Below the pieces are notes generated by a model. It worked only from the letters and a program-made list of their open reading frames with translations, did not search any database and was not told the origin of the DNA. Positions 32,268 to 64,000 of a DNA stretch of 64,000 nucleotides are shown here, piece after piece. Location of the stretch: positions 156,116,001-156,180,000 of the forward strand of contig NC_042997.1 in NCBI RefSeq assembly GCF_006345805.1, written 5' to 3'. The position numbers and the translations under genes are program-made. Source of the stretch: Octopus sinensis. Lineage: Eukaryota. Every line of letters begins with the position of its first letter. Position 1 is the stretch's first letter.

Positions 32268-33599
32268 CTAATAGTTTCACATACACGACAAGTACATTCA
32301 TCAGGTGCTGATTATTCTATGAAACCAAGAAGTTTAAATAAAGGACCGAGCAAGAAGCAATGCTAAAGCAGACCATAGTTAATGGAAGATTCCACTACAG
32401 GTAAGCTACTAAATTGAACCGATGCAGAGTGTTAAGATGAATTTAAATTGAAAATAACCATAAAAAATAAAGTAAAAGGATAAAGTCATAAAGTATGAAA
32501 ATCAAATTAAATCATAAACGTGTCAATATATAAAAATATGAAAATATTTATAGACCTACAGATAATCTAAAGGCTATACAAATATATACAAATACATAAG
32601 CTATATATAATACATAAATTACACAAATACATAAAATACAAATATACATAAATTACATAAAATTATAAGTGGGAAAGCTCTAAGGTGTCTGTTATAAAGA
32701 TCTATAATTATAATATATAAAAATTATAAAAGGAATATGAAAGGATGGGAAAAATATAATGTAAATATAAATATGAGACATAAATTGACAAAATGAAAGA
32801 AGAAACTATATCTATATTTCTAGGCGTTATATAGAAAGTTAGAAAAAATGTAGAAAAAAAATGACCAATCAATCGGGAATTGGTGGAATCTTCCAATTTT
32901 TTAAGATATATTTGCTTGACTGAAAGAGTACAGATTTTATTTAGATCTGAGATTCTGAACGCGATTTTGAACTCAAGATCAGAGATTTTCAGTGGATGTA
33001 AACAAATGTTTAAATATATCTTAAAAAGTTAGAAGATTCCACTGATTCCTGATTGACTGGTCATTTTTTTTCTACATTTATAACGCCTAGGATTATAGAT
33101 ATAGTTTCTTCCTTCATTGTGTCAATTTATATCTCAAATTTATATTTACATTATATTTTTTCCATCCTTTCATATTCCTTTTGTAATTTTTATATATTAT
33201 AATTATAGACCTTTATAACAGACACCATGGAGTTTTCCCACTTATAATTTTATGCAATTTATGTATATTTATTTGTATTTGATGTATTTGTATAATTTAT
33301 GTATTATATATAGCTTATGTATTTGTATATATTTGTATAGCCTTTGGATTATCTGTAGAGCTATATATATTTTCATATTTTTATATATTGACATGTTGAT
33401 AATTTATTTTATTTTTATAATTTTTAAAGTTTATAACCTTATCATTTTACTTTTTTTCTGTTTAAATTCATCTTATCACTCTGCATTGGTTCAATTTAGT
33501 AGCTCACTTGTTGTGGAATCTTCCATTAAATATGGTCTGCTTTAGCATCACCTCTTGCCTGGTCCTCTATTTAAACTTCTTGGTTTCATAGAATAATCA

Positions 33600-33646
33600 G
33601 TGCCTGATGAATGTACTTGTCATGTAGGTGAAACTATTAGTAGCAC
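33600..33646 (+). ncRNA. Type I hammerhead ribozyme (right palindrome arm)
   Basis: gtgc CTGATGA atgtac(ttgtcat)gtaggt GAAA cta(t)tag TA gcac. Canonical core, GUA cleavage triplet, palindromic stem III. Confidence 0.8.
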
Positions 33647-35589: not shown

Positions 35590-38588
35590 GCATAAAAAAA
35601 AGGAAATAGCAAATGACATAGCTGAGATTAGTAAAGGAAGTCAAACTTCCTTGCATAATTTTAGCAAACAAAGTACAATATCTAACAGAATTCCTTTAGT
35701 AATTAAATGGCACCGAAAGTTACCAGCATGTTGCAGAAAATTATCCTCATTTCAAACAAATATTTCCTCAGCAGCCTATTGAAGCCTTTAGATGGAATAT
35801 AAATATAAGAGATCTATTAACCTCTACTTCTGATTCCAAGAAAACTAACATTGGAGTTTCTGCACACTGTATATTGAAAAACAGCTGCAAGAGGGGTAAA
35901 TCCTGTTCATTGTGCAACAAGTTGATTCCTCGAGGAATCATAACAGAAATGCTATGATTAAACAAAATATTCACTTGGTACAGATATGACGTCAGGCACC
36001 ATAATAGTAGTTTGACAGAACTTGCCAAACATTTTGCATCAAACAGTTGCAATTTTGAAAAAGACTTGAAGGTGCATATTCTCAGAAAATATTCTGAATC
36101 TGATACTCAAAATGCATGAGGAGAAATATGTTTGTGAGTTATTCACATCATGCCCTAGAGGAATGAATAAAATGACAGGAGAATTTCATCATATTTACAC
36201 AAAACTGTTTGATTAAATATTCTTCTTTTTCTTTTCTTTTCTCTTTTTTCTTTCTTTTTCTTTTCTTTTCTCTTTTTTTTTCTTTTTCTTTTTGCCAGTT
36301 GTAAACTTGAAAATTGAAGATTGATGATGTCATTTCATCAATGTGGAAATGCTGGTTGCTCTTGTTCATATTTTGAATTTTAATTTCAATAATTTTGAAT
36401 TTCTATGAATCACTTTTCATTTTGAACTCGACAAAGACAGGCTAGTTTATGAAATATCATTCAACCAATAAAATATCTATCGCAATCATATCATGCTCTT
36501 TGTTTTGTCTATTTACCTTTGTGAAGAGTTATGTCAATCCTTTTAAAGTATCAAAATCAAGCAGATTGAGATGACTGATTTTGTGTTACAATGAATAAGA
36601 ATTGGAACATCTAGAAATTCTGGAAATTACCTAAACAGTTGGGTGTCTAAGGAAAATCATAATGTGAATTACAGCCTTTTGCATTTTATTCTGTATTACA
36701 GTTGGCTTGTCAGCCCTGTTAGTTTTGCCAGACCCAAGTGTTGGGCTCAGTCCTGAGCTAATGGATTTTGTACCATTCGAATACGAATCAGAAAATGAGA
36801 ATTCAATATTTCTATCTGTTAAAAAAAATCACTTTCATGCTAAAATCAAAAGCCATTTATCATTTCTAGAAACATGGGAACTACAAAAAATTATACCGGA
36901 AGGTCTTACATCAAACATACCAATGTGTACATCACAGTCTGACAATTCATTGCTTCAAAAGCTTAAATTAATTGGTGAGAGCAATTCATTTCACATAACT
37001 GAAGCTATTATTGAACACTATCATTCAAAATTAGTATTGCTTGGTGCAGACATTAAGGAGATTTTGAGTGTCCTTGAACAGGAATGTTCTTCTAAAAATC
37101 GTTTCTGCTATTTGCATAATTGATGAACTTTGAAAAAGAGGAAATTTCTTCCCTGAAGACAAAAAAGGAAAAGAAGCTGAAAAAGCTGATTTCCCATTCC
37201 TCTGAGCCAGTGAGTGAGAGAACATTTTGGCTGAGAACATTTGCTTTGAAATATGAGAAGTCTTTTTTATTTTCAGAACATATGTTATTTGATAAACTTA
37301 TTGACGCCAGATTAAAAATCATAGCAGAAAATTTACCTGAAATTCCAATACAACCAACCATTTTTTCTCAAATGGAATTTCTAACATACAGTCCACATGG
37401 CTCACTGTTCAGTCATCACATCAGGAACAATCATTTTGTTTTGTTGACAAATTTTTTGGAGATGTTTTTATTTACGACTGTTTGAACTTACCAGTACCAC
37501 AGGAATAGCACAAATAACAATGCTTTACTCACAACAAACAAACATAATTCCTACAGTTCAACAAATTCATATTACTAATCCTCAAGTTGGCACATATGAT
37601 TGTGGTCTTTTTGCCCTGGCATATACATTTGAAGTGGTCATTGGAAATGCTCCATAAAATTTTATATTTGATCAGTCAAAAATGCAAGCACATTTAAGAT
37701 TTTGCTTTGAAAACAATAATTTTGTTCCTTTCCTGAAAATAAAGGTTTTTTTCAAATGCCTACAAAAACCACAGAAGTCACTCACTTTCTGTCACCCACC
37801 CAGGAATGGATTACTCCTAGAAAGACAACTAAAAATTATGACTTCTCACATGAACATTCAGAACGATTTTTATCATGCAATAGATTCCATGTTTTAAGTG
37901 AAGATTTTGAGCAAAGCCCAAAAGGCAGTCAGAAATCTAACGAAAGTAAGCATTATAATTCATATGGAAGATGGGACACGTAGAGATTCATTTTGTGTAT
38001 GCAGCAGAATGCACAAAACACAACAGAACAATTAAACAAAAGATTTATTGGGCACAGGTATGACGTCAGGCACAATAATAGTAGTTTGACAGAACTTGCT
38101 GAATATTTTGCATCAAATGGTTGCAATTTTGAAAAAGACTTGAAAATGCATATTTTCAGAAAATATTCTGAATCTGCTACACTTTCAGTATTCAAAATGC
38201 ATGAGGAGAAATATGCCCTGGAGGAATGAATAAAATGACAGGAGAATTTCATCATATTTACACAAAACTTTTTCTTTTCTTTTTTTCTCTTTTTTCATTT
38301 CTTTTTTCACCTTTTTCTTTATTTTTCTTTTTGCCAGTTGAAAACTTGAAAATTGAAGACTGATGATGTCATTCCATCAACATGGGAATGCTGGTTGCCC
38401 TCATTCAGATTTTGGATTTGAATTTCAATAATTTTGAATTTCTGTGTGTATCACTTTTCATTTTGAATTCGATAAAGACAGGCTGGCTGTCAAAATATCA
38501 TTCAACCAATAAGATATCTATTGCAATTGCACTGTGCTCTTCGTATTGTCTATTTTCCTTTGTGAAGAGTTATGTCAATCCTTTTAAA
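35590..38588 (+). mobile_element. Partial-tandem, internally deleted Penelope-like retroelement with a Ulp1-like domain
   Basis: Upstream 3' piece: RIPLVIKWH, AFRWNINIRDLL, CKRGKSCSLC, and GIY-YIG tail ELFTSCPRGMNK. Direct repeats 35957-36547 and 38031-38588. PLE N-terminal motif HLSFLETWELQKIIPEGL..KKEKKLKKL. Second GIY-YIG VYAAECTKH..TTEQLNKRFIGH. RT core is absent. Confidence 0.85.
37215..37740 (+). pseudogene. Ulp1/SENP-like (C48) cysteine protease domain, frameshifted, within the PLE ORF
   Basis: LFDKLID..IQPT..HHIRNNHFVLL (His, 37432), GDVFIYDCL (Asp, 37476), PQVGTYDCGLFALAY (Gln 37583, Cys 37601), FDQSKMQAHLRFC. Confidence 0.75.
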
Positions 38589-38821
38589 ATATTATCATTA
38601 TCATTATTATTATTAAGGTGACAGGCTGGCAGAATCATTAGAGGAAGAGAAAAATTGCTTTGTGGTGTTCCTTCTGAGTTCAAATTTGGTCAAGATTACG
38701 TTTACATTTCATCCTGTTGGAGTCAATAAAATAGGTACTCACCAAGTATTGGGGTTGATATAATTGACTAGCCATCTCCTACCAAAACTACTGGCTTTGT
38801 GTCAAAATTAGAAAAAAAAAA

Positions 38822-60417: not shown

Positions 60418-60771
60418 CGCATGTGGGTGTATTTATATGTGTATATGACGGACTATCCTGTCGAAGACCATGTATGTATGAGTGTTCAGTGAGAAGACAG
60501 AAAAAAGAAAAAAAGAAATATATACAAATATAACAAAGATGTGGGAGTATGGTTGAGAATTCCACTTCCCAACTACATGGTTTTAGGTTCAGTCCCACTG
60601 TGTGGCAACTTGAGCAAGTGTTTTTAACTGTAGCCACAGGCCAACCAAAGCCTTGTGAGTGGATTTGGTAGGTGGAAACTGAAAGGTGCACACATGCACA
60701 CACACATATCTGTGTGTGTGTGTGTGTGTGCAGACATGACACACACACATGCACACACATGCACACACAAG

Positions 60772-60802
<31 letters not shown>

Positions 60803-60986
60803 ACACACACACATGTATTTATGTTCTGGTGTGGTTGTGTGGTATGAAGGTTGTTTCCCAACTACTTGGCTCTAGGTTCAGTCCCACTGTGTGGCAACTT
60901 GAGCAAGTGTTTTTAACTGTAGCCACAGGCCAACCAAAGCCTTGTGAGTGGATTTGGTAGGTGGAAACTGAAAGGTGCTAGTTGTA

Positions 60987-61092
<106 letters not shown>

Positions 61093-61095
61093 CCC

Positions 61096-61140
<45 letters not shown>

Positions 61141-61141
<1 letters not shown>

Positions 61142-61316
61142 TTTTTTCTCCCCCCCCTTTTTTAACCCCTCCCTTTTTTTTGTCCTTTTTCTTTCCTTTT
61201 ACGATCCCTTTTGATCGAAAACCACCACTCTCTTTTTTTTTTTACCCCCAAAAGAAAAGCTCTACCTTGTAATTTGTTCTATCTGTGTGCAGCCCTGTGT
61301 GGCTAATAAAGAAACA

Positions 61317-61319
<3 letters not shown>
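61141..61319 (+). mobile_element. Tx1 3' UTR-only copy in (TCTA)n (left arm of the inverted duplication)
   Basis: aaaagctctaccttgtaatttgttctatctgtgtgcagccctgtgtggctaataaagaaacat is the reverse complement of 61844-61905. Confidence 0.85.
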
Positions 61320-61398
<79 letters not shown>

Positions 61399-61435
61399 CC
61401 CATCTATCTATCTATCAACCTACCTATCTACCTAC

Positions 61436-61475
<40 letters not shown>

Positions 61476-61812
61476 TTATCCATCTATCTATCTTTCTCTC
61501 TCAGTGTGTGTGTGTGAGTGTCTTTGTGTCTGTGTTTGTCCCCCCCCACCACCACCACTTGAAACTGGTGTTGGCATTTTGACATTCTCATAACCTAGCA
61601 GTTCAGCAAAAGAGAATGATAGAATAAGCACCAGGCTTAACAAAAAAAAAAAATACTTATTCTATCATTCTCTTTTGCTGAACTGCTAGGTTATGAGAAT
61701 GTCAAAATGCCAACACCAGTTTCAAGTGGTGGTGGGGGACAAACACAGACACAAAGACACAAAGACACTCACACACACACACACTGAGAGAGAGAGATAG
61801 ATAGATAGATAA

Positions 61813-61843
<31 letters not shown>

Positions 61844-62984
61844 TGTTTCTTTATTAGCCACACAGGGCTGCACACAGATAGAACAAATTACAAGGTAGAG
61901 CTTTTCTTTTGAAGGTATTAAAAAAAAAAAAAAAAAAAAAAAAAGGAAGGGGGAGGTTCGATCAAAAGGGATCGTAAAAGGAGAGAAAGAGGACAAAAAT
62001 AAGGGGGGTTAAAAAAAAAAAAAAAAGGGGGGGAGAGGAAAAAAAAATGATCAATAGGGATCGTTATCACAGAAATGTCAATATGAAGTGTAAAGGGGAG
62101 GACAGGTGAGGTTTACCCGTGGAAAGAAAAGCCTGCGGAAAAGACCACGGTAACCTCGGTCAATGAAGTCACATTTTATATTTCTTTTTTTTTTTTTTTT
62201 TTTTTGCAAATAAGCAACTCTCTGTTTTCGATTTCTGGGTTCATAGGACTATGCTCAAGGTGGCTTCGTCATTCATACGTGCCATTCTTGCTACATTCAC
62301 CCATCTTTTTTTAAAACATTCGCTAGACAAAACTTGCCTCTCTACTCTCACTTTCCTTTTCAAGTGGTACTTGAAGAAGTTGATGAGAGATTGACCAGAG
62401 AGGAAAGTGTTTGTCTCCAATCCTTTCAGACGCGTCCACCAGATACATTCTTTCGCCATAGCCACAAGGATGATGAAAATAGCTCTTCCTTCCCGTTTGA
62501 AGGAAGGAGGCGTGACAATATTGACGATAGACTCAGCTGATAAACCGACTCGTCCCACACGTGACAGCAGTTCTTCGACATAAGCCCACAGGTCGGAAAT
62601 TGTTGGACACTGAACGAGTGCGTGCAGAACGGTTTCGTCGCTCTGACCGCATCTCGGGCAGGTCGGCCCCGTGTTTCTCGAGCCGTGTCTGTAGAGCTTA
62701 TCCCGAACGGGTAGCGCTTCTCGGTAGCACTGCCAGGCCAGGATCTCTGGAAGTTGTCCATGGGCCCTGGCCCGAAAGTCGTCCCGAACAGGCGGTCAGG
62801 TACTCCTCGTCGACGTCCAGGTTCGCCCCGAGCTCGTCGTCGTACCTCCCCTCCACTAAACCCCTATAGAATGCTTTGGTTGTGTTGAAGTCACTTAAGG
62901 TCGACCCAGGACGGCAGAGTTGCTTGAGAGCAACGCGACACTCGCGGTGCCATTCGCCCTTCCTCGGCCTCTTTTTGATCCACG

Positions 62985-62986
<2 letters not shown>
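61844..62986 (-). mobile_element. 5'-truncated L1/Tx1-clade LINE inserted in (GATA)n
   Basis: GC/CpG-rich ORF2 C-terminus with CCHC knuckle CPRCGQSDETVLHALVQCP, stop at 62241, and 3' UTR ending aataaagaaacat directly into (TCTA)n; (GATA)n on both sides. Confidence 0.88.
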
Positions 62987-63019
<33 letters not shown>

Positions 63020-63064
63020 GTAGATAGGTAGGTAGATAGATAGATAGATAGATAGATAGATGGG

Positions 63065-63142
<78 letters not shown>

Positions 63143-63311
63143 TACAACTAGCACCTTTCAGTTTCCACCTACCAAATCCACTCACAAGGCTTTGGTTGGC
63201 CTGTGGCTACAGTTAAAAACACTTGCTCAAGTTGCCACACAGTGGGACTGAACCTAGAGCCAAGTAGTTGGGAAACAACCTTCATACCACACAACCACAC
63301 CAGAACATAAA

Positions 63312-63351
<40 letters not shown>

Positions 63352-64000
63352 TGTGTGTGCTTGTGTGTGCATGTGTGCGCATGTGTGTGTGTCATGTCTG
63401 CACACACACACACACACACACAGATATGTGTGTGTGCATGTGTGCATGTGTGCTTGTGTGTGTTGAGTATTAACTCTCAGTGGCATGACAAAGTGTAAAA
63501 TTCTTAACTAACACATTGAGAATAACTAATATATAAATAAGGAGAGTGAGAATGGGGGAAAGAGAGAGAGAGAGAGAAAGAGAAAGAGAGTGAGAGTGAG
63601 AGAACGAACATGATTTCATTTTATATTTCTTATTGACATGCATTTAATATTTTCTCTCAAACGCAAAACAGTCTGGAAAATTCTCAGTTAACACAAAAAG
63701 GAAGATGATGTAATATTATATAAGTTCTCTGCTATTAAACTGAGAGAAAGTGTGTGGATAACAAAAAAGATTGAAATGAAAAGAGAAATAGATTGTGTGT
63801 TTGAAGGAATAAGAGGATTTGTCTTCTGATAGGATATAGTTTACTCTTGTAGCTGGTAATATTGAAAGTGTAACTGACTTAATACATTTCAGAAATAGCA
63901 CGAATAGGTAAATTACATGGAAGCATGGATACCTTAAGAAAATATATTACTAACTACAGGTGAAGTGTTACATAGAGTGAATTAATAATAAAACTTGGCA

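What the first reader, a model, noticed from the sequence alone, without database searches (positions are those of the whole stretch)
35590..38588. Penelope-like retroelement carrying a Ulp1/SUMO-protease domain
The ORF remnant runs PLE N-terminal motif (HLSFLETW..IIPEGL, KKEKKLKKL), then a C48-like protease with His, Asp and Gln/Cys catalytic motifs, a linker, and a GIY-YIG endonuclease. It lies inside a typical PLE partial tandem (3' ORF end plus pLTR repeated upstream). Ulp1-like domains are established cargo of Mutator, Zisupton and Helitron DNA transposons; I am not aware of them as a standard PLE domain. Inference: a PLE lineage with a deSUMOylase that could counter SUMO-dependent piRNA/heterochromatin silencing or process its own polyprotein.
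Basis: partly seen in the sequence, partly recalled or inferred. Interest (0 to 1): 0.82.

Follow-up and report, generated by a model that had tools for sequence, protein, structure and literature searches.

The report
Penelope-like retroelements carrying a cysteine protease
This is a broken, reverse-transcriptase-less copy of a lineage of Penelope-like jumping genes whose intact relatives carry a conserved SUMO-protease-like domain in the same protein, a combination I did not find described, which likely helps the element remove host ubiquitin-like tags or cut its own protein.

Summary
Window 35590-38592 is a decayed Penelope-like element (PLE) in partial tandem. Its main copy is collinear with intact 1,200-1,550 aa ORFs found elsewhere: leader, 2A-like NPGP motif, helical domain, clan CE protease, linker, PLE RT, thumb, GIY-YIG. 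About 2 kb (RT and thumb) is missing from this copy. The protease is not a nested insertion. It groups with the proteases of these PLEs, apart from MULE/KDZ ones; His, Asp, Gln and Cys are kept in 55 of 55 full domains; its divergence tracks the RT; and 26 protease-bearing RTs split from 20 protease-less Neptune-like RTs at 100/99 support. A model of the closest named relative (Octopus) has the SENP/NEDP1 fold, but SUMO specificity is not shown. New here: a 2A-like leader, a lineage-specific Gly-Gly just before the endonuclease (53 of 72 against 0 of 33), and the same protease in a Hydra PLE and before an APE-type endonuclease. Ulp1-like proteases are known in NeSL/Utopia, Crypton and Polinton elements; ten paper searches found none in a PLE. 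Verdict: new variant of a known kind.

The parts
35590..36551 (+). 5'-truncated upstream copy (pseudo-LTR of the partial tandem): RT thumb, CxxC linker, C-terminal half of the endonuclease, stop, 3' UTR
   Evidence: blastn repeat; profile positions 990-1105 and 1167-1252, weak extension to 35546; tblastn P0117 35631-36210
35868..35915 (+). Cys-rich C..C..CxxC linker remnant, Neptune-type; most like P0019/P0179/P0182
   Evidence: translation; compared
36571..36730 (+). ORF start, decayed MxDLxxYRxRIG leader and hydrophobic segment
   Evidence: ATG at 36571 reads MTDFVLQ*IRIG; family leader
36731..36760 (+). Decayed 2A/StopGo-like motif (reads DPSVGLSPEL; family DPS[IV]ExNPGP)
36761..37200 (+). 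Long helical N-terminal domain, shared with protease-less Neptune-like ORFs
   Evidence: tblastn; helical profile hits P0225, P0230, P0237, P0250, P0251, P0260, P0262; long helices in the model of P0013
37210..37747 (+). Clan CE (Ulp1/C48-like) cysteine protease remnant; His 37432, Asp 37476, Gln 37583, Cys 37601; two frameshifts and one stop
37750..37956 (+). Post-protease linker with the family's W-x-x-P and NRFxxL motifs; the junction of the ~2 kb RT deletion lies at about 37900-37965
37964..38273 (+). GIY-YIG endonuclease remnant; the family's pre-EN Gly-Gly position reads Asp-Gly at 37970-37975
   Evidence: (P0152 46% over residues 1157-1220)
38274..38586 (+). 3' UTR / terminal pseudo-LTR with a degenerate hammerhead-like core (also at 36314 in the upstream copy)
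   Evidence: folding not better than shuffles; no Rfam hammerhead hit
38587..38617 (+). (ATT/ATC)n microsatellite abutting the 3' end, the probable target
   Evidence: sequence; no target-site duplication of 8 nt or more found

Best explanation
This is a dead, internally deleted copy of a lineage of Neptune-like Penelope elements whose single protein holds a conserved clan CE cysteine protease between the N-terminal helical domain and the reverse transcriptase; in intact members the protease is likely active and most likely removes SUMO or another ubiquitin-like tag from host or element proteins to aid expression or insertion. Shown: the architecture, the partial tandem, the loss of RT in this copy, the fold of a close relative, conservation of the catalytic residues, co-inheritance with RT. 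Inferred: one gain of the protease in the ancestor of the lineage, from the stock also used by MULE/KDZ DNA transposons; translation from the leader ATG, where the 2A-like motif would shed or attenuate a short hydrophobic leader; target-primed insertion at microsatellites from a tandem template; decay and RT deletion after insertion, since the upstream copy retains thumb sequence that the main copy lacks.
For: Ten long hits of the protease piece are ORFs of 1,012-1,461 aa; Pfam gave RVT_1 and/or GIY-YIG on 9 of the 10. The same arrangement stands in DNA in L001, L002, L004. H/D/Q/C in 55 of 55 unique full domains; 30 of 30 full domains among P0152-P0262, ids that came mostly from the RT-region search, pass a triad pattern. 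Mean pairwise identity 44.5% protease against 46.8% RT, Mantel rho 0.77, 0 of 1000 permutations as high, n=37; dN 0.084 / dS 1.33 for L001 against L003. RT tree: 26 with protease against 20 without, 100/99. The window's domain falls in a 98-support set of 61 rows holding 45 PLE-family rows and no MULE/KDZ row. Profile hits SENP1 at E 4e-6 with the four catalytic residues aligned. Model pLDDT 88; Foldseek top SENP5, E 2.9e-6; VIA-align Z 13.7, rmsd 2.9, 146 aligned, SENP3. The module is also kept at the C-terminus of a Hydra-type ORF (L005) and before an APE endonuclease (L006), which suits a target in trans.
Against: No substrate evidence. NEDP1 (Z 13.3) ties with the SENPs, and viral and bacterial CE proteases follow at Z 9-12. 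The first tunnel Trp is kept in 4 of 55; His is followed by Trp in 17, Phe in 33, Tyr in 5. Pfam Peptidase_C48 scores of family members stay under the 20.7-bit cut-off (e.g. P0055 20.1, P0032 18.9). The clade-specific Gly-Gly before the endonuclease points instead to self-cleavage. The RT trees are unrooted, and no named Neptune reference is in them. dN/dS rests on two pairs with near-saturated dS.
Confidence: 0.5

Rival explanations
1. [quoted passage not shown]
For: Gly-Gly stands 9-10 residues before the GIY tyrosine in 53 of 72 protease-clade endonucleases and 0 of 33 protease-less ones; it is kept in 30 of 36 that lost the CxxC finger; Ile is two residues before it in 25 of 53. IxGG fits the adenain consensus (recalled, not from a call). 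The site lies at the domain boundary. Adenain, pS273R and I7L are among the fold matches.
Against: One lineage, one origin: the Fisher P is not meaningful. 19 of 72 lack the Gly-Gly, at least 8 of them with an intact triad (L001, P0011, P0154, P0169, P0175, P0187, P0196, P0214). L005 and L007 carry the protease with no such site. In finger-bearing members a cut there would part the last Cys from the finger. The glycines may be only a turn.
Confidence: 0.3
2. The domain binds ubiquitin-like proteins or cuts another host protein (for instance to protect the element's protein from degradation, as proposed for the Josephin domain of Dualen), with no link to SUMO silencing.
For: Altered tunnel residues; ties among CE families; the Dualen proposal is cited in PMC8557442.
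Against: Best sequence and Foldseek hits are all SENP/Ulp1.
Confidence: 0.17
3. The protease segment is a nested DNA-transposon fragment or a chance fusion in this one copy.
For: Related proteases occur in MULE+PHD and KDZ transposons; the window copy has no RT.
Against: Collinear with intact ORFs on both sides of the domain; groups with PLE proteases; co-varies with RT.
Confidence: 0.02

Closest known systems
Neptune clade of Penelope-like elements (as described in Craig et al. 2021, PMC8557442)
   Same: Single ORF, RT then C-terminal GIY-YIG, DKG motif, thumb and RT3 motifs like Neptune1_Ap and DreriNep1 in Figs S1/S7 (read by eye), CxxC linker in half the members, partial tandem.
   Different: Protease between helical domain and RT; 2A-like leader; Gly-Gly before EN; CxxC finger lost in 36 of 72; second Cys of CCHH often His; ORF 1,200-1,550 aa against about 860-1,030 in protease-less neighbours.
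NeSL and Utopia-1_TSP non-LTR retrotransposons (PMC4640811)
   Same: [quoted passage not shown]
   Different: R2-like RT with restriction-like endonuclease, nematode-limited; not PLEs. Sequences not compared here.
Chlamys-1_cBra PLE with Josephin-like motif (PMC8557442)
   Same: A PLE with a putative cysteine-protease accessory domain.
   Different: Different protease family, weak homology, C-terminal, N-terminal-EN clade, alga.
SENP/Ulp1 and NEDP1 proteases (MEROPS C48, clan CE)
   Same: Fold and His-Asp-Cys/Gln.
   Different: 12-20% identity, shorter domain, tunnel tryptophans mostly replaced, specificity untested.
Ulp1-like domains of MULE, KDZ/Zisupton-like, Crypton and Polinton elements
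   Same: Nearest outside relatives of the protease are MULE+PHD and CxC4/KDZ ORFs; C48 in Crypton (PMC3212892) and Polinton (PMC10175614).
   Different: DNA transposons; their proteases lie outside the PLE group.
2A-like StopGo sequences of APE-type non-LTR retrotransposons (10.64898/2026.06.17.732966; PMC12846837)
   Same: N-terminal hydrophobic stretch ending in [IV]ExNPGP.
   Different: Here in PLEs; most have Ser at the first octamer position, which is not among the validated variants.

Membership tests
EN+ Penelope-like element | PLE-type RT and GIY-YIG in one ORF (intact relatives) | tested here: met
   Pfam RVT_1/GIY-YIG, DKG motif
EN+ Penelope-like element | RT in the window copy itself | tested here: not met
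   Profile positions 466-1145 absent: the copy is a deletion derivative, not an autonomous member
EN+ Penelope-like element | Partial tandem / pseudo-LTR | tested here: met
EN+ Penelope-like element | Hammerhead ribozyme in the pLTR | tested here: inconclusive
   No Rfam hit; variant cores in window, L001, L002; only L002 folds better than shuffles, z -2.05
Neptune clade | CX2-5CxxC linker before EN | tested here: inconclusive
   Present in the upstream copy and 36 of 72 members, lost in 36
Neptune clade | CCHH motif in EN | tested here: inconclusive
   First Cys and both His present in alignment; second Cys often His
Neptune clade | RT groups with named Neptune references in a rooted tree | not testable with these tools
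   Reference sequences not held; neighbours identified only by motif likeness, e.g. P0229 to Neptune1_Nv
Peptidase C48 / clan CE | CE fold | tested here: met
   Model of P0002, Z 13.7
Peptidase C48 / clan CE | His-Asp-Cys triad and oxyanion Gln | tested here: met
   55 of 55; codons present in window
Peptidase C48 / clan CE | Pfam PF02902 gathering score | tested here: not met
   Window pieces none; relatives up to 20.1 bits against 20.7
SUMO-specific protease (SENP/Ulp1) | Two tunnel tryptophans | tested here: not met
   First Trp 4 of 55, second 17 of 55
SUMO-specific protease (SENP/Ulp1) | Cleaves SUMO conjugates | not testable with these tools
   Needs an assay
2A/StopGo | (D/G/C/N)(V/I)ExNPGP octamer | tested here: inconclusive
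   10 of 40 match exactly, 33 of 40 have a 2A-like motif, near-duplicates not removed; decayed in window; octamer from PMC12846837
2A/StopGo | Ribosomal skipping | not testable with these tools
   Needs a reporter assay

The most novel reading that the evidence does not exclude
A widespread PLE lineage that expresses its one ORF as a virus-like polyprotein: a StopGo signal sheds the leader, and an adenain-like CE protease cuts at IxGG to free the GIY-YIG endonuclease, perhaps also stripping SUMO from silencing factors; the module has since spread to Hydra PLEs and APE-type LINEs. It would be the first proteolytic maturation in a telomerase-related retroelement.
Probability: 0.25. Interest if true: 0.8.

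Novelty: new variant of a known kind. Interest (0 to 1): 0.58.

Why it matters
PLEs are the sister group of telomerase RT and are treated as minimal RT+endonuclease elements. A large lineage that has held a catalytic CE protease about as tightly as its RT gives a compact system to ask why so many unrelated transposons carry Ulp1-like domains, a question with no tested answer that I found. Intact ORFs with and without the protease, and with and without the Gly-Gly site, supply natural controls. The window copy itself is dead and matters only as a pointer.

Tried and rejected
No whole genome is held for this window, so copy number and intact octopus copies were not surveyed. Word-index search with the 86-aa piece against longer proteins: 18 candidates, none passed. 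Pfam on 8 window pieces: no relevant hit. phmmer of P0009 against PDB sequences: 0 hits. P0004 (bacterial surface protein) was a false hit and was left out of the alignments. P0001 matches to 37954, but the junction is only placed to 37900-37965, so P0001 does not settle it. Complex prediction of protease with the pre-EN/EN segment of P0009: no answer, score 0.00. Target-site duplication: none of 8 nt or more. Rfam: only microsatellite-driven miRNA matches below gathering scores, none in six loci. The first RT tree timed out and was redone; L007 is a long branch and was left out; one search used a hand-picked 46 of the 122 rows. Atlas searches gave Peptidase_C48 clusters at 0.93-0.94 but no cluster of this family. 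Rejected: Hydra, Naiad, Poseidon or Nematis membership for the main family (C-terminal EN, DKG, Neptune-type thumb; by eye).

Full report
Observation. The window is AT-rich, microsatellite-rich animal-type DNA; the closest named relative of the protease piece is an Octopus protein (UniRef A0A0L8FR10, P0002; 73% over the piece), so the host is probably an octopus (inference). 35957-36551 repeats at 38031-38592, 476 of 546 ungapped columns identical.

Relatives. No piece hits Pfam, but a full HMMER search with the 86-aa Gln/Cys piece gave 963 proteins at E<=1e-3, of which the best 150 were listed. Ten long ones share one layout: MxDLxxYRxRIG leader, hydrophobic stretch, DPS[IV]ExNPGP, helical domain, protease, low-complexity linker, PLE RT, thumb, GIY-YIG (two lack the N-terminus, two the C-terminus). 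Searches from P0009 added 4 proteins by the N-terminal region and the best 120 of 812 by the RT region. A metagenome scan gave 79 loci; L001 holds a whole 1,261-aa ORF, and its 3' terminal segment recurs before the start, as a tandem or an assembly overlap would give. Almost all intact records are unnamed metagenome contigs of 3-5 kb, so the hosts are unknown.

Anatomy of this copy. A profile of 29 complete ORFs covers the main copy from position 35 to 465 and again from 1146 to 1252; positions 466-1145 are missing. The upstream copy covers 990-1105 and 1167-1252. So the template had a thumb and Zn linker, and the RT loss in the main copy is likely secondary. The ORF starts at 36571, about 20 nt after the upstream repeat ends; the 2A-like motif has decayed to DPSVGLSPEL. 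The 3' end abuts an (ATT/ATC)n run.

The protease is integral. In a tree of 154 protease domains the window's domain, read with X at its breaks, sits with P0002 inside a 98-support set of 61 rows (45 PLE family, 1 APE, 14 unlabelled), away from MULE and KDZ rows. His, Asp, Gln and Cys are kept in 55 of 55 unique full domains; part of this set was found by the protease itself, but 30 of 30 among ids that came mostly from the RT search also pass. Protease and RT identities are alike (44.5% and 46.8%) and correlate (rho 0.77, n=37); dN/dS is about 0.06 for L001/L003 and 0.12 for L005/L007. In the 122-row FastTree, 37 protease-less rows lie behind a 99-support branch and all 53 protease rows lie outside it; rows without protease on the protease side are mostly 5'-truncated, and for two of them longer cluster members carry it (P0264, P0294). 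IQ-TREE on 46 chosen rows gives 26 against 20 at 100/99. Seven protease-less ORFs keep the helical domain and run on to RT, so the protease looks inserted behind an ancestral domain. The tree is unrooted: one gain is the simplest reading, not a proven one.

What kind of protease. The profile hits SENP1 at E 4e-6 with catalytic residues in register. The AlphaFold model of P0002 (pLDDT 88) matches SENP5, SENP1 and Ulp1 by Foldseek, and SENP3 (Z 13.7), NEDP1 (13.3) and SENP5 (13.3) by VIA-align; 29 chains score Z>=8, then a drop to 5.0. A model of P0013 gave the same. Clan CE is therefore firm; SUMO specificity is not. The tunnel tryptophans are mostly replaced (4 of 55 and 17 of 55), though P0200, P0214, P0216 and P0224 keep both.

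Two further features. 33 of 40 ORFs with helical domain and protease have a 2A-like motif, and 10 match the expanded octamer of PMC12846837; most others have Ser first, which that paper did not validate; one subclade has a different motif there. A Gly-Gly 9-10 residues before the GIY tyrosine is in 53 of 72 protease-clade ENs and 0 of 33 others, and outlasts the Zn finger (30 of 36). CE proteases cut after Gly-Gly (own knowledge), so this is a candidate self-cleavage site; against it, it arose once and at least 8 intact-triad members lack it.

Spread of the module. Proteases of the same group sit C-terminal to the EN of a Hydra-type ORF (L005; RT motifs match Hydra in Figs S1/S7), in a divergent PLE (L007) and before an APE endonuclease (L006; Pfam E 4e-4). 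Each is a single contig.

Mechanism. I put removal of SUMO or another ubiquitin-like tag at 0.5, self-processing at 0.3, another target at 0.17. That the domain is a real, selected part of the lineage I put at about 0.95.

Literature. PMC8557442: abstract, sections 3, 4 (part 1 of 4), 11, 12, 20, term passages, two term searches and one name search of the supplement, and parts 54 and 58 of 59; no Ulp1, SUMO or C48 in the supplement text, and only a Josephin-like motif in Chara Chlamys. Passages only: PMC4640811, PMC10175614, PMC3212892, 10.64898/2026.06.17.732966 (no mention of Penelope; supplements closed). PMC12846837: passages and section 9 (44, 48). Abstract and outline only: 10.64898/2026.07.22.740005 (19). 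Ten searches found no PLE with a Ulp1-like domain; most listed papers were seen as listings only. Repbase, Dfam and subscription journals were not searchable, so a database annotation may exist. That Zisupton and Helitron carry Ulp1 domains is recalled, not checked.

Verdict. Real; a new variant of a known kind. Ulp1-like cargo is common in transposons, which caps the surprise, but a large PLE lineage with a conserved protease, a 2A-like leader and a candidate cut site is new in what I could search, and directly testable. Interest 0.58.

Noticed in passing
window 32268-33640: Inverted pair of ~680-nt arms, 90% alike, with a canonical hammerhead core (CTGATGA at 33604, GAAAC at 33630): probably the inverted pLTRs of an unrelated PLE or retrozyme.
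   Followed up: partly
L005 365-2992: Hydra-type PLE ORF with the same protease fused after the endonuclease; close to the protease of L007, which has a different RT: domain shuffling between PLE clades.
   Followed up: partly
L006 124-2286: Protease of the PLE group upstream of an APE endonuclease, i.e. a LINE-type ORF with a CE protease.
   Followed up: partly
L008, L009, L012, L030, L037, L041: MULE-associated (or neighbouring) Ulp1-like domains with Cys at the catalytic Asp position (6 of the 15 outside rows).
   Followed up: no
P0055, P0155, P0188, P0200, P0232, L001: One subclade has a DxRSxKNRQR-type motif where the others have the 2A-like motif, after the same hydrophobic stretch.
   Followed up: no
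window 37884-37900 and relatives: NRFxxL-type motif after the protease in 27 of 29 complete ORFs by a loose pattern, in an otherwise variable linker.
   Followed up: no
L014-L034 and L051: A 14-row, near-identical multicopy Ulp1-like ORF family with a 224-aa upstream ORF that has no Pfam hit.
   Followed up: no
window 60697-63432: 448-nt inverted arms, 92% complementary, 1.8 kb apart.
   Followed up: no
window 2016, 6205, 16577, 20183, 46102, 53310, 57708: Seven copies of a 111-nt repeat ending in (GAT)n, probably a SINE 3' end.
   Followed up: no
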